A stretch of 40,358 nucleotides of DNA from a virus (lineage: Duplodnaviria; Caudoviricetes). Positions within the stretch are counted from its first letter, which is position 1. Every line of letters begins with the position of its first letter. This document shows, piece by piece, positions 690 to 40,017 of the stretch. The stretch is from IMG/VR virus record IMGVR_UViG_3300020181_000017, positions 1-40,358 of that record. One strand, given 5' to 3'. The notes beneath the pieces were generated by a model, which saw only the letters and a program-made list of their open reading frames with translations, searched no databases and was not told where the DNA came from. Made by a program: the position numbers and the translations under genes.

Positions 690-985
690 AGGTGTTTAGA
701 TAAAGCCTCGCTTCCGATCAGTAGTAGATTGGGCGAGATTAGAACTATATGATACCAAGCCGGCTATCGTATTCTCCACTCATAACCAGTCTCCTACACT
801 CCGTGATGTAGGCTATCGCCCTCCGATGTGAACACCTGCTTCCGTCATCTTCTAGAAAGAGCCGGCGGCGTCTAGCGCACAGATGTTCACGTCGGAAGGG
901 AGTAGCGCCTGATGTGGACTTACAGTACGCGTTTATTTATCGAGAGGTGCGACTGAGATCTCTCTAGCTTGGTGTTCCAAACGTC

Positions 986-2115: not shown

Positions 2116-2309
2116 GTTAGTAGGTAGGACATTGGAAGGGTGTTGATGGGGGAGAGGCGTAGAGTGGAGTAAAACCCAGTCCCGTGAGGCCTTTTAATTC
2201 TACGATGTTCCCCACCAGCACCTTTCCTTCTTAGCTCCTACCCTAAGCTTCAGCCGTTACCTCCCTCCGCTTCTGCTGAAGCTGGCGGAGGTAGCGGGAA
2301 ACAAACATC

Positions 2310-28375: not shown

Positions 28376-29095
28376 CTATGAGACGACCTCGAACTGAGCG
28401 TCGATGACCTGGTGCAACGTCTGCGTCAGGTGGGGCGCTTCGGCCACCTTCCCGCGCAGGGCGTACGTGACGGCGTTGAAGGCCCGCCAGGCAGTCGGAT
28501 CTCCCCAGTCGAAGGGCGGACGCTCGAAAGCGGCCATGACGTCAGGGATGCGCTGAAGGTTGATCGCGCCCTTCCGATAGAGCTCGATGACCAGGTGGTC
28601 GAACTCGTCGAGCTGGAGCGGCCGGTTGCGATACGCCTCGAACTGGTTGGCCTGGGCAAGGCGCTTCTGCTGCAAGGGCTGCACGATGTCCCCGATGATC
28701 GCCGGCAGCTCGCGGCGGGCGCGGAGGGTATGCTTCCGCTTCACCACGGTGTCGGCACAGAACGCCAGGTTCGAGCACACGAAGACACGGCTCCCGAAGG
28801 ACAGGCCGATGGGGAAGCTCCGGTCGTGACTGTTACGCAATCCAACCTGATCGCAGTAGTCCCCATACTCCGACTTCAGAGATAGGACACCGAAGTAGCG
28901 ATCGCCGTTCTTGTCGATGGCGTGGTGCTCTTCCACCACCTCGTGCTCGTGGTAGCGAAGCGCAAACTTGACCATATCAACGAAGTCAAAATGTGGGATG
29001 GGATGGTGGGTGGCCGTCGCGTCTGGTGTTTGCACCATTCGCAGTTGGTCCAGCGTGACAAGTTCCCCGCCGCTGTGCAGGTTCATGCTTTCCAT
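28376..29095 (-). CDS. DUF932/DUF945-family protein
   Basis: LRNSHD, RVFVCSNL, RKHT and TAWRAFNAVT motifs; SD AAGGAG. Confidence 0.85.
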   Translation of the reverse strand: MESMNLHSGGELVTLDQLRMVQTPDATATHHPIPHFDFVDMVKFALRYHEHEVVEEHHAIDKNGDRYFGVLSLKSEYGDYCDQVGLRNSHDRSFPIGLSFGSRVFVCSNLAFCADTVVKRKHTLRARRELPAIIGDIVQPLQQKRLAQANQFEAYRNRPLQLDEFDHLVIELYRKGAINLQRIPDVMAAFERPPFDWGDPTAWRAFNAVTYALRGKVAEAPHLTQTLHQVIDAQFEVVS

Positions 29096-29134
29096 TGCAG
29101 GCTCCTTTCAAAGAACACTGCAAGGAATTGTACC

Positions 29135-29503
29135 TTACGCTAGGAGCTCAGGGTTATCGTAGGTCTTAGCGCGAGGTTTTCCGGTCTTGAACTCGCTCCA
29201 TGCGGCGCGTCGTTCCTTAGACCACTTCGGCCGCTTCGCACCCCTCGAGTGAAGGGCTGTGTGCTCGCCATTCGTAGCAACCGCGAGGTTCGACAGGCGA
29301 TTGTCGGTCTTATCTTCATTCAGGTGGTGGACGATTTTCTTGGGGTCAGTCAGCAGTCCCGCATCCCACGCAATCATCCGGTGCTCTCGTACGTACCCGT
29401 TCTTCTTAGCCAATGGGTGCGACGGCTCGAATACCTCGTAGTAGCCGTGGACGCTGAGGATACGCTTAACGCCCTTTTTGTTCCGGCTACCCTTCGTTTT
29501 CAT
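29135..29503 (-). CDS. HNH homing endonuclease
   Basis: GYVREHR..VHHLNEDKTDNRLSNL..EHTALH. Confidence 0.9.
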   Translation of the reverse strand: MKTKGSRNKKGVKRILSVHGYYEVFEPSHPLAKKNGYVREHRMIAWDAGLLTDPKKIVHHLNEDKTDNRLSNLAVATNGEHTALHSRGAKRPKWSKERRAAWSEFKTGKPRAKTYDNPELLA

Positions 29504-29864
29504 AGATATTTCCGGTTACGACTACATCGCTAGCAGTCCCCTTGTTGAGATGGCGTGTACCGCCGAGCCAGAAGCCACTATTCTCCTCGCTCCAGCGCAC
29601 CACATGGTCTACGAAGAAGTCGCCGTATGGCTCCCTAACCGTATCTCCTTCGTAGATTTCGCGGCCGTTCTTATCGAGGAGGCCGGTGAATTGCATGACG
29701 TGGAAGCGACCGGGCTGGAAGGTCAATGCATCCCAGTTCTTGATGAAGACCATCCCTTTGATGGGTGGGCAGTACACGAATTTCCCGGTGTGCTCCCCAT
29801 CGATGTGCATCTCGTACATTGCTTGCCGCTCGTCATCCCACGCCCGAAACTTAATCGCTCTCAT
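29487..29864 (-). CDS. YopX-family protein
   Basis: IKFRAWD, MQFTGLLDKNGREIYEGD and VTGNIYEN motifs. Confidence 0.92.
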   Translation of the reverse strand: MRAIKFRAWDDERQAMYEMHIDGEHTGKFVYCPPIKGMVFIKNWDALTFQPGRFHVMQFTGLLDKNGREIYEGDTVREPYGDFFVDHVVRWSEENSGFWLGGTRHLNKGTASDVVVTGNIYENEG

Positions 29865-29949
29865 AGCTAGTTTGATAAGCAAGCCAAAACCCTGGACGCT
29901 TTGCGAGTATCCAGGGTTCTAGCCGCAAAGCTTTTAATCGCACCTAGGT

Positions 29950-29986
29950 AGTATACCAAAAAAACCCCCGCTGTCCTGGCGGGGGC
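29950..29986 (-). promoter_or_regulatory. Terminator of the CHC2 gene abutting the extended -10 promoter for yopX
   Basis: Minus strand CCCCGC-cagaca-like loop-GCGGGG hairpin plus T-run, then TGGTATACT. Confidence 0.55.
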
Positions 29987-29992
29987 TGTGCA

Positions 29993-30658
29993 TTACGCAC
30001 GCTTCTTGAAAGGTACAACGCTCGACTTGAGCTGCGGCGGTAGGTGGATGTCACCCTCAACCGCTACGAAGGAGACTTCTCCGTCTTCTCCGGTGACGCG
30101 AATGACGATCTTTCCGCGATGTACGCCACGATTAGCGTACCCAATTCCTGCGGCTCTCAGCTTCTCTGGATCGCCGCCGATTTGGGTGAGCAGCTCGTGC
30201 TCATAATCTAATCCTTCGGCGTACTTATCCGCGTCGAATTGGTGGGGAGGAGACGATGGTCTGCCCCCTCCCCGAGGCTGACGAGAAAGTGATCTCTCTC
30301 GCCCGCTCTCTGGCACTTGTGAGGCACGAGTACGGTCACTAGGTACTGTGTCTCTGGTACTGTGTGTACCGGTACTGATACCGGCGCGCTCAGCGAGCTC
30401 TAAGGCCGCATCACGCATTGTTGGTAGGTCGAGGACGTGTTTGGCAAAGCCGATTACGTCGCCGCCTGTGTCGGCCGAGTGGCAGAAGAAACCTTTGTCG
30501 GCTGTGACGACGAGTGAACGTCCGTCCTTGGTGCCGCAGGCGGGACAATCGCCACGCCATTGCTTTCCTGCGAACTTGAGCCGCAAACCGAGCAACTCGA
30601 TTGCCTCGGCAAAGGGTACTTCCCGCTTCACCAAGGCGAAGTCGATAAACTTCGACAT
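29993..30658 (-). CDS. CHC2 (DnaG-type) zinc-finger protein without TOPRIM domain
   Basis: CPACG..FFCHS..GGDVIGF; SD GGAGG; no primase catalytic motifs seen. Confidence 0.8.
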   Translation of the reverse strand: MSKFIDFALVKREVPFAEAIELLGLRLKFAGKQWRGDCPACGTKDGRSLVVTADKGFFCHSADTGGDVIGFAKHVLDLPTMRDAALELAERAGISTGTHSTRDTVPSDRTRASQVPESGRERSLSRQPRGGGRPSSPPHQFDADKYAEGLDYEHELLTQIGGDPEKLRAAGIGYANRGVHRGKIVIRVTGEDGEVSFVAVEGDIHLPPQLKSSVVPFKKRA

Positions 30659-30788
30659 AGCAACCTCCACGGTGCATGAGCCTTCCTCCTAGGAACACCT
30701 GCACGTAGTCTACCACTCGCTGTCCCCACCTCTTCGGCTAGGGGTGCGTATCCATGGTTTGATTAGGGAGGAACCAAGGAGGTCCATC

Positions 30789-30965
30789 ATGGCCGGTAAA
30801 CGACCTGACTATCATGTCTTCGTGTCCCGCAAAGGACCGGACAAGACCTACTATTCTCGTATAGGTGCAGCGTGGAATGTCGCGAGCGACGGCATCTCCA
30901 TCAAGCTCGAAGCGCTCCCGCTGGACGGCGAGCTCGTGCTGTTTCCACCGAAGGACGACGAGTAA
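30789..30965 (+). CDS. Small DUF736-like putative ssDNA-binding protein
   Basis: RPDYHV..RIGAAW..GISIKL..LVLFPP; SD AAGGAGG; terminator follows. Confidence 0.65.
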   Translation: MAGKRPDYHVFVSRKGPDKTYYSRIGAAWNVASDGISIKLEALPLDGELVLFPPKDDE

Positions 30966-30972
30966 TTCACAC

Positions 30973-30996
30973 GACCCCCGGCGAAAGCTGGGGGTC
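30973..30996 (+). terminator. Hairpin terminator
   Basis: GACCCCCGGC-GAAA-GCTGGGGGTC. Confidence 0.55.
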
Positions 30997-31080
30997 TGCT
31001 ATGATAGAGAGGCCGTGAGAAATCGACCGCTCGTGGCACGTAACATCGCCGGAACCGCCTCGTAGGGGCGGTTCTTGCGT

Positions 31081-32019
31081 TTAGGCGATGATGCTCTTCG
31101 GGCCGTTCACCGTCTGCCAGTCGGTGAAGAGCTCCTCCATGGGCTCCTTCGGGAGCTTCCACTTTTTCGTACTGAACTGCGGGAGAACTTTGAAAAAGAA
31201 CCTCTCGGCGTGCTTCTTCCCCTTGAGGTAGCGAAGCATGATGTCCGCGTCCGACTGTTTGGTGCAGGCCCACATTACCGAGAGGCTCGGAATACCCCAC
31301 TGCTGGCGGTAGAGGCGACGCTCAAGCAGCTCTAGCTGGTGATCGAGCTTCTGCTTGTTGTTGTTTCCCTTGGCCCGCGAGAAGCCCACGGTGCGGGTGT
31401 CTTCACGCACCCAGAAGCGGAACGTGCCGTCGCTCTTGCGCTCGAAGCTCAAGAGGCGGTCAGGCTCGTAGTGGCCGTCGCTCACCTTCACGAGGAGCGG
31501 GTTGTCAGCCTCCTTTGTCGCCTCGGGGCAGTTGGGATGCGCGAACAGGTACTCCTGGTCGTGGAAGACGAGGCCGTGGTCGGGCGCGAGCTGCTCGAAT
31601 GAAAGGTCGATGCACGCCCCCATGCAGCGGTGCCGATCGTGGTCGCGCCGGGGAACGGAGATGGCGATCTCAGCCACCTCGATGCCCTTGTCGGTGAGGT
31701 CGTAGACGGCCTGGCGACCGAGCTCCCCTTCTGGGTTCAGCTCGTCAGGACGCCACACAAGCGTCTCGCCGTCGTACTTCTCGTGGAAGAGGTCGGTAAG
31801 CTGGCGCAGGACAGTCTGCTTGTATCCTGGCTGTCCGCCGAAGAAGGGACGCACAAGGAGGCCCGATGGTGCTGGGCCGTGCCGGAGTGCCTGGAGCACC
31901 CGGATCTTCCTGTCCGTGAGGACATAGCGCTTGTTGGTGGACTGAGGCTCGTTCCGGAAGCGCCGGCCGTGCTCGCTAGCGTCAACCTTCACGGGCTTAG
32001 TGCGGTATTTCGGTCTCAT
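31081..32019 (-). CDS. Replication-relaxation (Replic_Relax-like) protein, putative relaxase
   Basis: N-terminal wHTH (LTDRKIRVL..VYDLTDKG), then HDRH, EPD and VRED (PD-(D/E)xK-like) motifs; directly downstream of a coupling-protein gene. Confidence 0.65.
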   Translation of the reverse strand: MRPKYRTKPVKVDASEHGRRFRNEPQSTNKRYVLTDRKIRVLQALRHGPAPSGLLVRPFFGGQPGYKQTVLRQLTDLFHEKYDGETLVWRPDELNPEGELGRQAVYDLTDKGIEVAEIAISVPRRDHDRHRCMGACIDLSFEQLAPDHGLVFHDQEYLFAHPNCPEATKEADNPLLVKVSDGHYEPDRLLSFERKSDGTFRFWVREDTRTVGFSRAKGNNNKQKLDHQLELLERRLYRQQWGIPSLSVMWACTKQSDADIMLRYLKGKKHAERFFFKVLPQFSTKKWKLPKEPMEELFTDWQTVNGPKSIIA

Positions 32020-32105
32020 AGATCGAGAGGTTAGCGCCGGGATTTTAGGTGTAACCGTTCGCCATGGGCAGGATGTGCACAGTGCTACGCGGTGGCGCTA
32101 TATGA

Positions 32106-34085
32106 TTACTCGTCTATTTTACCCCACTTCACCCAATCACCGTCCTCTTCGGGTGTTGATACCTCAGCAGCCTGCACGAATGCGGCCCGTGGTGGCTCGG
32201 GATAGCTGGCCGGGATGCCCACCTTTGCGCGGTTCTTCGCGAGCAGTTCCTCGTATCTCGTATAGGTGAGCCGTGGCGCATGTTCGAGCGGAGATGGGCG
32301 TGTGGGGATCGCTACAGCGTGTGGGGTGACGTCCTGGATGTAGGCTGCCCAAGTGTAGCGAGGCTGGCCCATGATGAACTCCGGCGTTGTCCGCATGTTC
32401 GGGGCGACTTGGCGAGCGTCCGCGACCGAGATCCTCGAAGCGAAGCGGATGCCGGGGTTCGTGAGGAGCGACGCTTTGAGTGCCTGAGAGGTGGTCTCTT
32501 CGAGCTGCCGGTGAGCGAGGATCACACCGCAGTTGTACTTGCGCGCCTGGTTCAGGAACTCGTTGACCGACGTGTCGAAGTAGTCGGAGCACTCGTCGAT
32601 GTAGATGTACGCCGGGTGCCGCGAAGCGCCGGGGTCAGCGCGTTGCAGAATGGTTTGCAGGATGAGGCTGATGAAGAGCTTTCCGAACACTGGAGAGCCG
32701 GTAGCCAGGTGGTCGCGCGCCGTGTCCACGAGAATGACGTAGCCGTTGTCCAGCGCGTGCTTGAGATCGAGCTTCGTCTCAGGAGCACTGAGGAGGCGTC
32801 GGACGGCGGGGTTAAGCAGCACCCCTCGTAAGCGGTAAGCTATCTCCTTTCGGGTCTTCGTGAACTCCGAGCCCTTCTGGAACAGGTCCTCCTCGAAGAA
32901 CTCGCGGGTGAAATCCGGGAGGGTATCCACCACGTCCTTGTATTTCAGCGGGTCCTGCAGGAAGCGGAAAAGATCTAGCACCGTGGCGTTCTGATCCCGC
33001 GCCCGGGGGAAGGCGAGCAGTGCCTCAGCAATGTGCTCAAAGAGGATGCCTTGCTTGGACGTGAGGTCGGCGGTGCCCCCAGCAAGCGCGGAGATCAAAA
33101 AGTTGAACGTCTGAACGATGTAGGCGCGCGCCCTCTCTCTGGCCGTTTCGTTTGCTTCAGACTTCAGAGCAAACGGGTTCAAGGCCGGCGCGATAGGGTC
33201 CTGCGGGTCGATGATGATGAGGCGATCTTCAATGCCGAGATCCGCTCGTTGAAGCGTTCGTACCAAGTCGCCGGTCGGCTCGATCACCACGACGGAGGGC
33301 TTAGCCGGGTCCTTGATGTCGTTGATGATGAGGTTGGCTAGGAGGGTACTCTTCCCTGATCCGGTGTTCCCGATTACGTGCATGTGGTTCATGCGATCAA
33401 GGGTCGTGAACTTGAGTGGTACCGGCGTTCTAAACACGTCAGCGAACGGTGTGCCCGTTAGGTACGTCGCCACGAGCTCGTCTGGTGGTAGACCGCTCTT
33501 GCTTGCTAGTTTGAGTGGCTTCTTGCTGTCAGAGGATGTGCGACCGGAGGCAGCTTGGATGTTGGCCCACATTTGATCTGTGAGGCCCTTGAAGATGCCG
33601 CGATCTTCGAACTTCGGAGCGCAGAGCGTCGCGAAGATGCGGTCGATTAGTAGGCCCGGCTCATCCAGGGTGTAGACAAGCGGGATGGTGAAGGGCGACG
33701 GGCTCTCTGCCTGGGGTAGATCCTTGCCGATGGAGTAGAGGGCTAGGGATAGACCCTCAAAGAGTAGTTCCTCGAAGGCTTCGCGGTTCTTGAGGTAGTG
33801 CTGCTTTTGAAAGAGAAGCGCCCGGTACTCCGTCAGCTCCCGGAGGTTCATCCGGTCGAAGTCTGGCGGCGGCGTTTCCCACAGGTACGCTTCCTCAATC
33901 ATGAGGCTGGAGATCACGTTCGCGAACGGACGGAAGAGCTCGGTGGGTAGCTTGTAGATGAAGTCCTTGGCTATGCGGATGCCAATGTTCTTTCCTACCT
34001 CCGCAAGGCTCGCGTCGTGCGCCCACACCCACTCGTACAATTGGAGCGTATCGCGTAGGTCGCGTTCGCGCCCCGTCTGAGCCAT
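32106..34085 (-). CDS. Type IV coupling protein-like ATPase (VirD4/TrwB/TraD family)
   Basis: HMHVIGNTGSGKS (Walker A), LNPF, YIYIDE (Walker B), QARKYN and ILAHRQ motifs. Confidence 0.88.
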   Translation of the reverse strand: MAQTGRERDLRDTLQLYEWVWAHDASLAEVGKNIGIRIAKDFIYKLPTELFRPFANVISSLMIEEAYLWETPPPDFDRMNLRELTEYRALLFQKQHYLKNREAFEELLFEGLSLALYSIGKDLPQAESPSPFTIPLVYTLDEPGLLIDRIFATLCAPKFEDRGIFKGLTDQMWANIQAASGRTSSDSKKPLKLASKSGLPPDELVATYLTGTPFADVFRTPVPLKFTTLDRMNHMHVIGNTGSGKSTLLANLIINDIKDPAKPSVVVIEPTGDLVRTLQRADLGIEDRLIIIDPQDPIAPALNPFALKSEANETARERARAYIVQTFNFLISALAGGTADLTSKQGILFEHIAEALLAFPRARDQNATVLDLFRFLQDPLKYKDVVDTLPDFTREFFEEDLFQKGSEFTKTRKEIAYRLRGVLLNPAVRRLLSAPETKLDLKHALDNGYVILVDTARDHLATGSPVFGKLFISLILQTILQRADPGASRHPAYIYIDECSDYFDTSVNEFLNQARKYNCGVILAHRQLEETTSQALKASLLTNPGIRFASRISVADARQVAPNMRTTPEFIMGQPRYTWAAYIQDVTPHAVAIPTRPSPLEHAPRLTYTRYEELLAKNRAKVGIPASYPEPPRAAFVQAAEVSTPEEDGDWVKWGKIDE

Positions 34086-34714
34086 CAGCGCACTTGGAAG
34101 CTGGAGAGCATGAACAAGACAGACGTGAACAGCAAGAAAGCCAAGAGTAGCAGTATGCCGATCCCGTTGAAGCCATCGTCCGCCTTCTTTTGCGCCGCAG
34201 CTTCTGGCGCAACCCTCTGCACGAAGAGGGAGGCTTCCTCCGGCGCAGCTAAGCTAGGTTGGGGAGCAACCTGGACAGGTGGCAATGGACGGGTGGGCAT
34301 GGGCTCGGCGCGGGCGACCACCTCCCCCGTCTCCATGTCGATCACCTGCTCCTGACCCTGGAAATAGTTCGCTTCCTTGATGCGGGAGTGGAGCAGCTTC
34401 GCGTTCGCTCTGATCTCGTTCTCGACCTCGATCAGCTCCTCGAACCGGCCGCTCTCGATGACGTGGCCGCGCTCAAGGCTCTCGGCGGTGATGTTGATCA
34501 CGAAGCCCTTCAGCTCTGGAAACACTCCCGTGACGACGGACCCGAAGAGGTTGGAGCCCTTGGTGACGTCCTTCAGCCAGATGGAGGTCGCGACCTGGCA
34601 GATGGGGAAATACCCCACCTTGCGGAGGTTCTGCTTCTCCTCGTCGGAGTAGTCTGCGCGGACCTCAAGCCTGAATTTTTTCCCGACCTCAGAGCGCTTT
34701 ATTTTGAGCTGCAT
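34085..34714 (-). CDS. Hypothetical protein with C-terminal TM anchor
   Basis: Start MQLKIK with SD GAGGGG; Pro-rich linker, then IGILLLLAFLLFTSVLFML; TGATG-coupled to the ATPase. Confidence 0.7.
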   Translation of the reverse strand: MQLKIKRSEVGKKFRLEVRADYSDEEKQNLRKVGYFPICQVATSIWLKDVTKGSNLFGSVVTGVFPELKGFVINITAESLERGHVIESGRFEELIEVENEIRANAKLLHSRIKEANYFQGQEQVIDMETGEVVARAEPMPTRPLPPVQVAPQPSLAAPEEASLFVQRVAPEAAAQKKADDGFNGIGILLLLAFLLFTSVLFMLSSFQVR

Positions 34715-34757
34715 CGGTTTTTCCCCCTCGGCAGGGGAACGCCGCTCTCTGGAACTG

Positions 34758-35522
34758 TCAAGCGCTGCGCATGTACGCGTCTCGGTCTGCGAGGAAGCCC
34801 TCGGTGCCGCGTGCAAACTTCGAGGTGTAGAGGGCCAGGAGGTCTGCATCGTCAGAGTTGCAGCGGCTGCCCACTTTCGTAGGGAAGGACAGGAGGCGGT
34901 GCTTCCAGTCAGGCAGCTCCTCGAACGCGCTGACCCCGGCGATGAGCCGGTTCTGTCGCATCAGACGCGCATGACCCTGGTGGGCGTAGAAGCCGAAGTC
35001 CGGGATCACGACCGGCCCCTCGTATTGAGAGATCAGGAAGTTCGCGAGCACGAAGCTGTCAAAGTCGCCTAGTACCGATCGGTCGAGTTTGGCGAGTATG
35101 ATGCCTTTGAAAGAGATGTTGGTGGGTCGTGTGAGCACGTCCTTCAGTACGGGTGACAGGAGTAGTGTCTGTATCGTCTGGTAGGCGTGCTCGGTTTCCC
35201 TGCTATCACGAATGAGCGTCTCCAGGTCAGTTGGCTCGTTGAGGAGGGATCGTAGTATCTGAAAGCGTGAGCGCTGTTTGGTGAGTGTATTCTCCCCTTC
35301 CGGGAACACAGCATCGAGAACGGAGACAAACTCCCGTGCCTTTCGGTAGTCGAGGTCAGCCAGCGGATTGAACGAGTGTTTTGAAACGTCGAACCGAACC
35401 ACCTGATAGTGGTCGGGAAAGGTGAGCCGATCGGAAAACTCGCCGTCGTCGATCAGCAGAAACCGCTCGGAAAAGTATCGTGAGATCGGCGCTTTGTCGC
35501 TGCCGAGAATGAGTACGTTCAT
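34758..35522 (-). CDS. Miniaturised, degenerate VirD4/TrwB-like paralog
   Basis: Colinear remnants NVLILGSDK, FLLIDDG, SFNPL, IILAKLDRSVLG and VVIPDF match the neighbouring ATPase, but Walker A and B are broken. Confidence 0.65.
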   Translation of the reverse strand: MNVLILGSDKAPISRYFSERFLLIDDGEFSDRLTFPDHYQVVRFDVSKHSFNPLADLDYRKAREFVSVLDAVFPEGENTLTKQRSRFQILRSLLNEPTDLETLIRDSRETEHAYQTIQTLLLSPVLKDVLTRPTNISFKGIILAKLDRSVLGDFDSFVLANFLISQYEGPVVIPDFGFYAHQGHARLMRQNRLIAGVSAFEELPDWKHRLLSFPTKVGSRCNSDDADLLALYTSKFARGTEGFLADRDAYMRSA

Positions 35523-35525
35523 TGT

Positions 35526-35883
35526 GTGGGTCGGTGGAGTAGAGCCTCGCTTCGGGAAGGGGTGCTCCCGCCGACCACGAAACGAAGAACTCCCACACCA
35601 TTGTAAACGGTAGAGGTCCCACTTCCCTTCCCCGTGGGGGGAGAGAGCAAGGGGAAGGGGGTCCCCGCAATGGGGGATAGGGAAGGAGTAGAAGGGGGCA
35701 AACGGTACAGTGACCGCACCGTTTCGTCTGTGGTCCCGTAAGGGCCACGACCCATGGGGTTTTTCGTAAGAATAAAGCACATGGGTCGTGGCCGTGAGGC
35801 CATGCGAAACGGTGCGGAATCAGTGTGTTGTCGGGGTTATCCCCGGCATACAGTATGGTAAGGCGTATGGTCGGCTCGTATGC
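35526..35883 (+). other. Highly structured non-coding region (candidate oriT / single-strand origin or RNA)
   Basis: Six or more hairpins, including a four-way junction at 35714-35817 with GTAA/GTAA/GTGA loops, and a G-rich tract. Confidence 0.55.
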
Positions 35884-35884
35884 G

Positions 35885-35893
35885 TGGTACACT
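35885..35893 (+). promoter_or_regulatory. Extended -10 promoter upstream of the candidate ncRNA
   Basis: TGGTACACT, the same form as TGGTATAGT, TGGTATACT and TGTTACACT elsewhere in the genome. Confidence 0.5.
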
Positions 35894-35899
35894 GCCGCT

Positions 35900-36330
35900 A
35901 GGAAGTGGAGGGTTGTTGTGGCGCGGGTTAGCGGTTGTCTCTCTTAGCCCTATCAGCCGAAGCAGATAAGACGGACGGGCACTGGACCGAGTTTCTGCAA
36001 GAGATGAGGAGCGTATACGCGAGGGTTAGACGCCCTCCCCGTGCCCCACTAGCCCTTCACCGACAGTTCGAGTGCAGATGGGGGAATGAGATACCGGAGC
36101 CGTACTAGCGCGCGGCATGGGACCCAGCTTGGGTCGCCGGACGAGGATGCTTTCCCCTCGTCGTTCCCCACCTGCGCTGGAACGGTTCGAGGATAGACGG
36201 GGGAGTGTAATGCAGTGCGAGGCTGCGCGCGCAGCAACGTCTGCTAAAGCGGTAGAGGTTAGCGACCTCGGGGCACTCCACCGCCTGACCTTGAACATGA
36301 AAAAGCCCCGCGATGGTCTGCGGGGCTTTG
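35900..36330 (+). ncRNA. Candidate ~430-nt structured ncRNA of unknown class
   Basis: Promoter, end-closing stem, nested long-range helices with G-U pairs on the plus strand, terminal hairpin, no credible ORF. Confidence 0.6.
36301..36330. terminator. Bidirectional intrinsic terminator
   Basis: AAAGCCCCGC-8nt-GCGGGGCTTT, between the ncRNA candidate and the convergent H-NS-like gene. Confidence 0.7.
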
Positions 36331-36350
36331 TCGTACTCGTACGGTAGGTG

Positions 36351-36779
36351 TCAGGCCGCGATGTAAAGGCCATCCTTCTGAGCGATGGTGTTGGCCTTCT
36401 TGAGGGCTGCGAGCGCGTTAGAGACGCTCTGTTCCGCCGACTTGTTGCCCTTAGCATCGAGCTTGGCGAGTACGTCTGCGCGGCTGATGCCGTCGCCGCT
36501 CTCCTTCACAATCGAGAGCACCTGGTCACGGATACCAGTGCGCCGGGTACCGCCGCCAAGCGTGCTACCTCCGGAAAGGGTGCTGCCGCCGGAAAGCGTC
36601 ATGGCGCTTCCGGACTGCCGATTGCCCTCCACGAGCCGATAGGTGAAACCGAGAACGCGTAGCTCCTCGATCGCGGCGTTAGCGCGGTTGAGAGCCTCCT
36701 GCTTAGCCTGCTCGCGCAGTTGGTTCTTCTGCTCTTCGAGCTCGCGGATCTGGGCGTCGATCTCTTCGAGAGTAGGCAT
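36351..36779 (-). CDS. H-NS-like oligomerisation domain fused to a winged helix
   Basis: MPTLEEIDAQIRELEEQKNQLREQAKQEAL N-terminus; C-terminal IRDQVL..GISRADVL..VSNAL..LY; SD AGGAG. Confidence 0.65.
   Translation of the reverse strand: MPTLEEIDAQIRELEEQKNQLREQAKQEALNRANAAIEELRVLGFTYRLVEGNRQSGSAMTLSGGSTLSGGSTLGGGTRRTGIRDQVLSIVKESGDGISRADVLAKLDAKGNKSAEQSVSNALAALKKANTIAQKDGLYIAA
36546..36599 (-). repeat. 3 x 18-bp coding tandem repeat (TLSGGS TLSGGS TLGGGT)
   Basis: Seen directly in the linker of the H-NS-like gene. Confidence 0.85.
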
Positions 36780-36828
36780 GGTACGTCTCCTGCTGTGGTG
36801 CTCCTCTAGCAGTATCCCATGTAAAAGA

Positions 36829-36855
36829 AAGCCCCCGGCGATGAACCGGGGGCTT
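36829..36855 (-). terminator. Terminator after alpA
   Basis: AAGCCCCCGG-7nt-CCGGGGGCTT followed by TCTTTT on the minus strand. Confidence 0.65.
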
Positions 36856-36865
36856 AGTGGCTCCG

Positions 36866-37060
36866 CTAGGAGCCGGGGTTGGCATCTGTCGAGAACTTGG
36901 ATTGCTGCCATTCCTCAATGTCAGAGGCTCGCCACGCTACCCTTCCGGTGCCCAGACGTACCCGCTTAGGGAATTGTCCAGCGGCCTCCAGGCGCGCTAT
37001 GTGTGCTCTGCAATAAGGTACGTAGCTCTTCAGCTCTTTCGCAGTGATTAGCCGTTCCAT
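36866..37060 (-). CDS. alpA: AlpA-family regulator / excisionase
   Basis: RLITAKEL..IARLEAAGQFPKRVRLG..RVAWRASDIEEW; directly downstream of the integrase; SD GGAG. Confidence 0.88.
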   Translation of the reverse strand: MERLITAKELKSYVPYCRAHIARLEAAGQFPKRVRLGTGRVAWRASDIEEWQQSKFSTDANPGS

Positions 37061-37100
37061 CACGGTACTCCAATGAGGAGCATCGCGATGCATCCGGCGA

Positions 37101-38204
37101 TTACCGGACGAGCAACCATACCAGGGCTTCTTCGATCTTGCGAAGCGCTTCTCGCTTTTGTGGGAGGTAGCTCCACTGATCGTAGATCGCGTCGAGGTCT
37201 TTGGGTGCGTGGTTGAGAAGGTGCTCCGCGATGTCTCGGGGAACCCCTACCCTCGCTGCAAGGCTGCGGAAGGTGCGCCGTAGATCGTGAGGCGTCCAAC
37301 CGCTGGTGCCGGATCGTTTCTGTACGGTGGCGACCACCTGGGACAACCCACGCGGGGTGATGTGCCCCTCCCCCCACCTGCCGGGGAAGAAGTGCTGGTG
37401 GTTGTGCTTCGGTAGGATGTGCTCCGCCAGCGGCCCAAAGGGGATTGAGTGGGTTCTCCCGTTCTTCGTGTGGTCGCCAGGGATCGTGAGCACCCCCTGG
37501 AAGGCCCAGGATTGCTCCAGGACGCACGTTTCCTGCCTGCGGGTACCGAAGAGCAGCATCGCCCGCACAGCGGCCTCTGAAGGGCCTGTACAGGCGTGCC
37601 AGACGGCGACGACCTCCTCGTCAGTGAGGATGCGGGTCTTCTTCCTGTCCTTGCCGGGTGCCTCGTAGCCCGTGAGGGGACTGTAGCGGAGGTAGCGGCG
37701 GGGAGCGCGGACGCACCAGTTGAAGAAGGTCCGCAAATAGCGGAAGGCGTGGAGCTGTTCGCTCGGTCGGTCCTTCAGCTTGTCGAGGCAGCGCTTGATG
37801 TCGGCGTCCTCGATGTCCGCGAGCTGCATCGGCTCAAGGTGCTTGAAGTGCAGCTTGAGGGCGCGGGAGACCTGGTACTTCGTCCCCTCGCTCTTGTCGG
37901 CGTAGTGGGCGTCGAGGAACTCGTCTCGGGCCTCGCGGAAGCACTTGTGTTGTGACTTGTGCTGCCACTTAGGTTCTTCGGCTAAGAGCTTCTTGGCCTC
38001 AAGGCGCGCGGCGCTGAGAGGAAGGTCGGGGTATTGGCCGATCGTCACGAGCTCACGCGAGCGGCCTCGCATACAGACCCACGTCTTCGTGTGCTTCCCA
38101 ACGCGGATGCCAAAGCCCCGCGTGGTCTTGCACATGTAACGGATGGGAGGGGTACCGCCTTTGAGGGCGCGCACCGCCACGTCAGTGAGATGCACGACCG
38201 GCAT
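37101..38204 (-). CDS. int: Tyrosine integrase with N-terminal arm-binding domain
   Basis: Catalytic R (GTRRQE), K (TKNG), HDLRR, LNH and Y; N-terminus LTDVAVRAL..GFGIRV; start MPVVH with SD GGAG. Confidence 0.93.
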   Translation of the reverse strand: MPVVHLTDVAVRALKGGTPPIRYMCKTTRGFGIRVGKHTKTWVCMRGRSRELVTIGQYPDLPLSAARLEAKKLLAEEPKWQHKSQHKCFREARDEFLDAHYADKSEGTKYQVSRALKLHFKHLEPMQLADIEDADIKRCLDKLKDRPSEQLHAFRYLRTFFNWCVRAPRRYLRYSPLTGYEAPGKDRKKTRILTDEEVVAVWHACTGPSEAAVRAMLLFGTRRQETCVLEQSWAFQGVLTIPGDHTKNGRTHSIPFGPLAEHILPKHNHQHFFPGRWGEGHITPRGLSQVVATVQKRSGTSGWTPHDLRRTFRSLAARVGVPRDIAEHLLNHAPKDLDAIYDQWSYLPQKREALRKIEEALVWLLVR

Positions 38205-38206
38205 CG

Positions 38207-38460
38207 TTTGTCTCCTTTTTGTCTCGCAATCCCAAGGAACAGGGACTGGACACAGTGTAACGCCATGAGCAGGTCGCTCTGGCGAAACGGTCAATGGAAA
38301 CAGATGGATGCCGGTCAGTATGAGCGCGTATGTGCGCTATGAGGAGGTATCACTTTTTTGCTTGGAAGGCTGCTGCACTACCATTGTGCTATACCCGCCA
38401 AGTCAGTGACTTAGCCAAACTCCGTCGTTCCATTTGTCTCGTTTTTGTCTCCCAAACCCA
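38207..38460. other. attP region: tRNA-derived core flanked by arm-type repeats
   Basis: 28-bp direct repeats (25/28 identical) at 38207-38234 and 38433-38460, each holding two TTTGTCTC copies at 11-bp spacing, flank the tRNA fragment. Confidence 0.8.
38360..38398 (-). pseudogene. 5' half of tRNA-Gly(TCC), the attP core
   Basis: GCGGGTATAGCACAATGGTAGTGCAGCAGCCTTCCAAGC: acceptor 5' strand, D arm and anticodon loop CTTCCAA, then an abrupt break; no T arm. Confidence 0.88.
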
Positions 38461-39378: not shown

Positions 39379-39492
39379 AGCGAGGCTTCCGCTTGAAAGC
39401 CAAGCTGAATATGCGCGTGGGAAGCGAACCCGCTTTTGGGGAACCCGATGTTCGGGTACGGTAGCCCTAAGATCATCTCAAAGGGGCTTTTC

Positions 39493-40017
39493 ATGCTTAG
39501 TCGGGCAATCGCGGGTATCGCCGCCGCGCTCTCCATTTCGTCGGCGGCTTCGGCCGCTGACTTCATCGGCTACGTCTCCGTCACAGGCGGGACCGTGGCG
39601 CACTTCGAGGAGCTCGGGGCGCAGTTTCCTGGCGCTATCTGGACGAGCGTGCTGGCCGCTAAGGGCACGTTCCCCGCGCAAGAAGACTGCTTCCCATCCG
39701 GCTTCACTCCGACCGACGCGTGCCGACAGGAAACGGTGGGCGGAGAGTTCCTCGCGGATCGGGGAGCGGAGGATCTGAACCAGCTCTTCAACTCCGGCCT
39801 CGACGACGGACAGAACGGCACGGGGCCGGCTGACTTCTGGATCGCGTACACACTCGATACCGGGGACCGGGTGGTGACGACCTTCCACCGCGTGGACGCC
39901 GACACCTGGACCAGCCCTACGCAAGCCATTCCCGAACCTGCGACCTGGGCGCTCATGATCCTGGGCTTTGGGAGCGTGGGCGCGATGATGCGACGGCGGA
40001 GGCTGGTCCCGGACTAG
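39493..40017 (+). CDS. PEPxxWA-CTERM surface protein (exosortase substrate)
   Basis: Signal peptide plus C-terminal IPEPATWALMILGFGSVGAMMRRRR. Confidence 0.9.
   Translation: MLSRAIAGIAAALSISSAASAADFIGYVSVTGGTVAHFEELGAQFPGAIWTSVLAAKGTFPAQEDCFPSGFTPTDACRQETVGGEFLADRGAEDLNQLFNSGLDDGQNGTGPADFWIAYTLDTGDRVVTTFHRVDADTWTSPTQAIPEPATWALMILGFGSVGAMMRRRRLVPD

What the first reader, a model, noticed from the sequence alone, without database searches (positions are those of the whole stretch)
35885..36330. Unannotated ~430-nt multidomain ncRNA with its own promoter and terminator
Seen: TGGTACACT predicts a start near 35900. The ends pair (35900-35910 with 36276-36286). Nested helices follow: 35912-35926 with 36223-36238; 36035-36042 with 36197-36205; and a ~23-bp stem, 36066-36089 with 36161-36183, enclosing a multibranch loop (GACCCAGCTTGGGTC, ACGAGG/CCTCGT, GCCG/CGGC). 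There is a hairpin at 36255-36269, a possible alternative or pseudoknot pairing GTGCCCC/GGGGCAC, and a terminator at 36301-36330. Non-Watson-Crick positions are mostly G-U on the plus strand, as expected for a selected single-stranded fold. RNase P, tmRNA and intron signatures are not seen. Inference: a new large RNA class linked to the relaxase module, perhaps a primer, guide or scaffold.
Basis: partly seen in the sequence, partly recalled or inferred. Interest (0 to 1): 0.85.

Follow-up and report, generated by a model that had tools for sequence, protein, structure and literature searches.

The report
Tandem clamp-closed phage small RNAs
The stretch is not one big RNA but three back-to-back copies of an uncatalogued phage RNA module, a conserved double-helix clamp around a different folded insert each time, found in about 40 other phage-type contigs, and the clamp likely marks where the host enzyme RNase III cuts the inserts free as small RNAs whose job is untested.

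Summary
The region lies in a complete 40-kb temperate podovirus-like phage genome. Each is closed by the same ~20-bp clamp (11-bp covarying helix, A.C mismatch, Y-R pair, GGGGG/YCCCC) around an unrelated insert. The clamp is a family: 44 further units on 40 contigs, 18 of 20 pairs covarying; in a blind test 16 of 106 virus hits paired their unconstrained arms (0.11 expected); a model without window sequences recovers all four. No Rfam match. A -10 box precedes 19 of 46 units (5.8 expected, 0 on the other strand). The relaxase link fails: coupling protein in 1 of 19 independently found carriers. The outer helix fits RNase III half-site rules; I infer processing into 66-130-nt cargo RNAs, probably decoys (untested). 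The terminator belongs mainly to the convergent gene. This scan noted similar clamp-and-cargo arrays, described with other stems, on other DNA.

The parts
35885..35893 (+). Extended -10 box (TG-n-TACACT); predicted start near 35900, 4-5 nt before unit 1
   Evidence: Sequence; a -10 box precedes 19 of 46 first-in-array units, 5.8 expected, 0 of 46 on the opposite strand; not called by the sigma-70 scan, which needs a -35
35904..36061 (+). Unit 1: clamp (21 of 24 pairs, U.C mismatch at position 13, divergent G-run) around a ~118-nt multibranch insert
   Evidence: Mean pair probability 0.98; leave-out model E 4.6e-4
36066..36183 (+). Unit 2: canonical clamp (A.C mismatch at 13) around three hairpins; one hairpin recurs in the unit of locus L114
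   Evidence: Pair probability 0.88; leave-out model E 9.3e-12; 22 of 24 aligned columns identical to L114 insert
36185..36296 (+). Unit 3: clamp (A.C at 13) around a three-way junction
   Evidence: Pair probability 0.98; leave-out model E 4.6e-6; arms 18/24 and 15/24 identical to unit 2
36301..36330 (.). Terminator hairpin, strong U-tract on the - strand (end of the convergent 142-aa gene), short U-tract on +; probably also ends the array transcript
2134..2227 (+). Unit 4: solitary fourth member of the same clamp family, elsewhere in the phage
   Evidence: Found by stem scan; best hit of the leave-out model, E 3.9e-14
35714..35885 (.). Neighbouring, separate element: conserved nested inverted repeat plus short repeats of the relaxase-module chassis; its end overlaps the promoter
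   Evidence: Profile hits in 56 of 125 loci of the neighbouring gene; z -8.6/-9.4; alignment

Best explanation
The locus is a short, gene-free phage transcription unit holding three tandem copies of a conserved clamp-and-insert RNA module, and the clamp is likely an RNase III site that would release the three different inserts as stable small RNAs, probably acting in trans as decoys or sponges for host RNA-binding proteins. Shown: three units, their homology, the family, covariation, strand, promoter bias, exchange of inserts under near-identical clamps. Inferred: host RNase III binds the outer 11-bp helix as a half-site and cuts the 3' arm next to the mismatch (after 36048, 36170, 36283) and, if it cuts both strands, the 5' arm after 35918, 36080, 36199, giving 130-, 90- and 84-nt RNAs whose ends are locked by the invariant G-C run. 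Because the inner half-site carries G-C at positions that block E. coli RNase III, a single nick, as at T7 R1.1-type sites, is also possible. Speculative (about 0.3): decoy function of the inserts.
For: Tandem model is the MFE, pair probabilities 0.88-0.98. Blind test: pattern fixed only clamp positions 12-20; 16 of 106 distinct virus hits pair 10-11 of the 11 free outer positions (0.11 expected), 18 pair 9 or more (0.58 expected). 44 non-window units: 18 of 20 pairs with double changes, covariation 0.68 against 0.20 shuffled and 0.08-0.17 slid; pairing stops at the clamp end (10-14 of 42 outside). G.U 65 against A.C 6 in outer stems of 50 units. RNase III fit in 44 units: position 11 A-U/U-A in 32 (position D of PMC6212723, pb2 of PMC1540722), position 5 has G on the 5' arm in 29 (J), position 13 avoids G-C/C-G in 41 (pb4 antideterminant; R1.1 has a U.C there per PMC1540722), position 15 G-C in 44 (A'), outer helix 11 bp = the minimal half-site length. 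No protein family is shared by more than 8 of 15 unit-bearing phages, which points to a host enzyme; RNase III is in 5 of 5 Patescibacteria tested and in Caulobacter. Modularity: L208 and L302 share 24 of 24 outer-clamp letters with inserts at background identity; G034 repeats promoter plus clamp with different inserts; tandem pairs in G034 and G037. Insert sub-families recur across phages; two inserts hold a tRNA T-arm, one unit sits 13 nt before a tRNA gene.
Against: No cleavage was observed. E. coli rules fit only in part: positions 12 (pb3) and 4 (db1) do not match, the strongest outer signals (A-U/U-A at 3 in 42 of 44, G at 9 in 38 of 44) are not explained by the passages read, and the inner half-site is all G-C at B' and D'. 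Host 16S leader-trailer stems in 25 Patescibacteria are A/U-rich and unlike the clamp, so the clamp is no copy of that host site. G15, G18, C13' and C15' were imposed by my scans, and positions 12-20 by the virus pattern for 19 of 44 rows; of 8 units added by the model, 3 have G-C at 13. Inserts mostly share nothing, so a common function is not shown; no insert of the window has a match longer than 13 nt elsewhere in the phage. The host is unresolved.
Confidence: 0.55

Rival explanations
1. The clamp is not cut; it is a binding handle for a host or phage protein, and the insert is an effector domain (Y-RNA-like modular design), so the array acts as one multivalent RNA.
For: The invariant G-run, G.U at 19 (36 of 44) and the C of the mismatch are more than RNase III needs, and the inner half is anti-determinant (PMC1540722).
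Against: Outer helix is sequence-variable, constant in length at 11-12 bp and carries half-site-like preferences; no shared phage protein; no Rfam Y RNA hit.
Confidence: 0.2
2. These are ordinary cis-acting mRNA processing or stabilising hairpins of the T7 kind; the inserts are neutral filler.
For: 27 of 47 non-window units have an ATG frame of 40 aa or more within 120 nt downstream (no chance control); inserts are mostly unrelated.
Against: The window array has no gene behind it on its strand before the terminator; tandem copies and 30-130-nt folded inserts are unnecessary for that role; insert motifs recur between phages.
Confidence: 0.17
3. One reading: one ~430-nt multidomain RNA with paired ends, working with the relaxase module as primer, guide or scaffold.
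For: One promoter-to-terminator span next to the relaxase module (Replic_Relax and coupling-protein-like genes confirmed).
Against: Fold 28 kcal/mol worse; no homologue of the whole; slot empty or holding unrelated ORFs in relatives; coupling protein in 1 of 19 independent carriers.
Confidence: 0.04
4. DNA-level cassettes: MITE-like terminal repeats or attC-like single-strand recombination sites moved by the integrase or relaxase.
For: Variable interior in a conserved stem with a mismatch; inserts are exchanged; the phage has a tyrosine integrase and a relaxase.
Against: Arms conserve pairing, not sequence; G.U outnumbers A.C 65 to 6 on one strand; -10 boxes are strand-specific; the integrase is a phage Arm-type enzyme; most carriers lack the module.
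Confidence: 0.04

Closest known systems
RNase III processing hairpins of phage T7 (R1.1 and its minimal substrate; PMC1540722, passages and Discussion read)
   Same: Phage transcript, ~11-bp half-site helix, A-U/U-A at pb2, U.G at db2, non-canonical pair at pb4
   Different: T7 sites are short hairpins between genes; here the stem encloses a 30-130-nt folded, exchangeable insert, has an invariant G-run, and occurs in gene-free tandem arrays
Leader-trailer processing stems of rRNA operons (established knowledge; 25 Patescibacteria examples examined)
   Same: A long stem made by the flanks of a structured RNA
   Different: Host stems are A/U-rich and lack the G-run and mismatch; the clamp model finds none; cargo is small and variable
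Bacterial and phage Y RNAs (Ro60-binding stem plus variable, sometimes tRNA-like domain; recalled)
   Same: Ends pair into a conserved stem with an unpaired C; variable domain; some inserts have a T-arm
   Different: No Rfam hit; different stem sequence; no Ro60/TROVE domain among the window proteins scanned
Guide-RNA arrays (CRISPR, TIGR; TIGR seen only as a search listing, PMC12045711)
   Same: Tandem constant-plus-variable units behind one promoter
   Different: The constant part is a pair of arms enclosing the variable part; no associated effector gene; inserts are folded and 30-130 nt; often solitary

Membership tests
Any Rfam 15 family (RNase P, tmRNA, SRP, GOLLD, ROOL, OLE, ribozymes, Y RNA) | Score at the gathering threshold | tested here: not met
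   0 hits in the window; best E 1.4 in 35500-36500; only tRNAs outside the units in 14 and 19 relative loci
RNase III substrate | Helix of at least 11 bp beside the cut | tested here: met
   Positions 2-12 paired and covarying; pairing ends at position 1
RNase III substrate | A-U/U-A at pb2 (D), G upstream of the 5' cut at J, no G-C/C-G at pb4 | tested here: met
   32, 29 and 41 of 44, in a register I chose; pb4 partly imposed by my scans
RNase III substrate | A-U at pb3, U-A at db1, permissive second half-site | tested here: not met
   Position 12 G-C/C-G in 36 of 44; position 4 mixed; positions 16 and 18 G-C. PMC1540722 says one half-site suffices and db may vary among bacteria
RNase III substrate | Cleavage with 2-nt 3' overhang | not testable with these tools
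   Needs end-mapping or an in vitro assay
tRNA / tmRNA | Cloverleaf with canonical D, anticodon and T arms, or tag frame | tested here: not met
   ARAGORN 0 genes; T-loop motif in 3 of 51 inserts, none in the window
Protein-coding gene | Conserved overlapping ORF | tested here: not met
   57-, 62-, 76- and 143-aa frames: no Pfam hit; no homologue for the 57-aa frame; the other three were not searched for homologues
Integron attC / MITE | Sequence-conserved cores or terminal repeats, IntI-type integrase | tested here: not met
   Outer arms vary freely in sequence; Arm-type phage integrase; target duplications not examined
Relaxase-associated RNA (reader) | Co-occurrence and fixed position with the relaxase module | tested here: not met

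The most novel reading that the evidence does not exclude
Phages use a standard host-processed clamp as a plug-in socket for a large, fast-exchanged repertoire of folded small RNAs (tRNA-arm mimics, pseudoknots, aptamer-like domains) expressed first from early promoters as RNA counter-defence or host-takeover factors: an RNA counterpart of anti-defence protein morons, with dozens of unrelated effector folds now retrievable by one stem model.
Probability: 0.3. Interest if true: 0.85.

Novelty: new variant of a known kind. Interest (0 to 1): 0.62.

Why it matters
Covariation screens look for conserved RNA interiors, so a family whose only constant part is the closing stem escapes them. This clamp gives a handle on at least 50 different small phage RNAs and predicts exact ends that one in vitro RNase III assay can test. 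If the inserts are effectors it opens a class of phage RNA weapons; if not, it is still a widespread uncatalogued processing signal and a natural design for releasing stable RNAs in bacteria.

Tried and rejected
Homologues of the whole 430 nt: none in phages or plasmids, 121 related loci, 5 and 23 genomes or records (only short terminator-like or chance pieces). Pattern GACCCAGCTTGGGTC: 25 hits, all 15-17-nt chance matches. Pattern from the 5' arms of units 2 and 3: 19 hits, most of them tRNA 3'-end-like by eye, none with a matching stem; resemblance treated as chance. Single-protein locus scans found nothing. Expression: no RNA holder listed; one DNA run, possibly the source. Model searches in 151 Alphaproteobacteria and 151 Patescibacteria genomes gave 0, but the second lost its known positive, so both are uninformative. 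A 40-genome rerun kept the positive and gave 1 weak hit in 39 others; a pattern in 401 Patescibacteria genomes was at control level, 0 of 30 fetched hits with 8 or more outer pairs. Hammerhead, twister, pistol, HDV-like, group II domain V, SRP Alu and permuted-tRNA readings were considered by eye from recalled consensus features and dropped: no Rfam support. tRNA-like NCCA end: dropped, the base after the conserved C pairs with the leader and varies. Host: capsid protein hits 3 of 301 Patescibacteria and 2 of 301 Alphaproteobacteria genomes, all weak: unresolved. No structure or complex prediction was run.

Full report
Setting. The window is a complete virus record with terminal repeats: terminase, capsid, adaptor and internal virion genes, and a block with integrase, AlpA, a 142-aa orphan gene, a coupling-protein-like pair, a Replic_Relax protein and a CHC2 protein. 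The finding lies between the 142-aa gene and the 254-aa coupling-protein-like gene, on the strand opposite to both.

Observation. The quoted motifs exist and the stretch folds well (z -3.93 on +, -3.72 on -). Rfam, ARAGORN and nucleotide searches give nothing. The arms of the three domains are homologous (units 2 and 3: 18 of 24 and 15 of 24 identical), which is why they can be cross-paired on paper.

The slot. With an alignment of 120 of the 472 homologues of the 254-aa gene I fetched 121 loci. None holds the 430-nt sequence. What is conserved is the 170 nt upstream, a nested inverted repeat hit in 56 of 125 loci. Behind it relatives have nothing, a small ORF, a restriction-modification-like pair by eye, or other inserts (both outputs were partly cut). 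The hairpin at 36301-36330 is called a terminator on the - strand only and has counterparts in 5 of 8 relatives without the array. So the array is cargo in a variable slot.

The family. A stem scan found a fourth unit at 2134-2227 and a relaxed scan over 1.70 Mb gave 28 distinct hits against 1 in 0.63 Mb of shuffled sequence; I kept 23 and dropped 5 that lacked the G-run or lay in coding sequence by eye. Of 106 distinct hits, 16 pair 10 or 11 of the 11 free outer positions (0.11 expected from mismatched arm pairs) and 18 pair 9 or more (0.58 expected). I kept those 18 and one with 8 Watson-Crick pairs. A covariance model added further units. On 44 non-window units from 40 contigs, 18 of 20 pairs show double changes, 88.7% of cells pair against 63.6% shuffled and 44-50% slid; the rows were selected for pairing, so the blind count, not this score, is the independent evidence. 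A model built from these 44 alone ranks the four window units first (E 3.9e-14, 9.3e-12, 4.6e-6, 4.6e-4; next unrelated hit 0.75). Units are 67-137 nt in that set, 158 and 172 nt at most. Inserts align at background level (median 0.52 with gaps), even where the outer clamp is identical at 24 of 24 letters (L208, L302). A few insert sub-families recur: unit 2 with L114, L074 with L101, L084 with L190 and L309. Tandem units occur also in G034 and G037.

RNA, strand, position. Outer stems of 50 units contain 65 G.U and 6 A.C. A -10 box lies within 39 nt upstream of 19 of 46 first units, against 5.8 in shuffles and 0 on the other strand. Rfam has no hit on any unit in 14 and 19 loci. Overlapping frames have no family and the one searched has no homologue.

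No relaxase link. The first 23 units came from loci chosen by the module, so they cannot test the link. Among 19 carriers found by the pattern alone, 1 has the coupling protein (1 of 6 among those at least 90% complete). In module-bearing relatives the units lie kilobases from the slot. No protein cluster is in more than 8 of 15 carrier genomes.

Mechanism. PMC1540722 (find passages and Discussion part 1 read) defines an 11-bp half-site with A-U/U-A at pb2, U.G in the distal box, G-C/C-G at pb4 as a catalytic antideterminant, a U.C at pb4 in R1.1, and one half-site as sufficient. PMC6212723 (find passages; Figure 5 not held) reports A-U/U-A at D, G at J upstream of the 5' cut and G-C at the two positions between cuts; 10.1101/2023.03.12.532304 (passages) finds like preferences in B. 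subtilis. Setting the mismatch as pb4 (B) puts D at 11 (32 of 44 A-U/U-A; neighbours 4, 6, 7, 8 have 18, 26, 23, 17), J at 5 (G in 29) and A' at 15 (G-C in 44). Misfits: pb3, db1, the strong signals at 3 and 9, and an all G-C inner half. I therefore infer RNase III cleavage beside the mismatch, double or single, at about 0.65, with the G-run as an end lock or protein site on the product. Host 16S stems differ. The decoy role of the inserts is inference from their placement first behind promoters, their exchange, the T-arm mimics and the lack of a downstream gene here.

Host. Module relatives sit in alphaproteobacterial genomes, including isolates; virion genes of the window lack Shine-Dalgarno motifs while several module genes have them, and many carriers look like Patescibacteria-type phages by my judgement. 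Phages interacting with both groups are reported (PMC10746230, abstract passages). Unresolved.

Novelty. Literature searches (listings only) showed no description of this clamp; subscription papers and motif supplements were not seen. Earlier scan notes describe clamp-and-cargo arrays with other stated stem features in other phages; sequence and motif look-ups found none of this family. My reading of tandem units and RNase III was noted.

Noticed in passing
window 35714-35885: Highly conserved nested inverted repeat (four related arms, variable central arm, small GNA/GNNA-looped side hairpins, then repeats of CATAC/GTATG) in 56 of 125 loci of the relaxase module; folds on both strands (z -8.6/-9.4). 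Likely the single-strand DNA origin or nick site of the Replic_Relax protein; more conserved than the finding itself.
   Followed up: partly
window 29993-38204: Module of integrase, AlpA, two coupling-protein-fold genes (one truncated), Replic_Relax and CHC2 protein recurs in many complete tailed-phage genomes with unrelated virion genes: a relaxase-based replication or mobilisation module in phages.
   Followed up: partly
window virion genes 5217-26508 versus module 28376-38204: Virion genes lack Shine-Dalgarno motifs and have A/T-rich starts, several module genes have AGGAG: possible chimera of a Patescibacteria-type virion with an alphaproteobacterial integration module.
   Followed up: partly
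window 811-907 and 1017-1103: Two more long stems enclosing branched inserts in a gene-free stretch, with closing stems unlike the clamp; no Rfam hit.
   Followed up: partly
window 38360-38398: 39-nt stretch matched by short, high-depth contigs in the DNA run, just upstream of the integrase: likely attP core matching a host tRNA end.
   Followed up: no
window 39436-40017: PEP-CTERM-tagged protein gene in the phage, probably captured from a host.
   Followed up: no
L061:5400-5570 (-): A relative holds a different ~100-nt stem-closed insert directly behind a -10 box in the same slot; not a member of the clamp family by the model.
   Followed up: partly
L079:10116-10216 and L354:18801-18904: Inserts start with a tRNA T-arm followed by D-arm-like hairpins, in non-tRNA order.
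   Followed up: partly
L389:1501-1566: One chromosomal look-alike of the clamp in a Patescibacteria genome directly upstream of mraZ-rsmH (gene names by my recognition), with A-U at position 13; may be chance or an operator palindrome.
   Followed up: no
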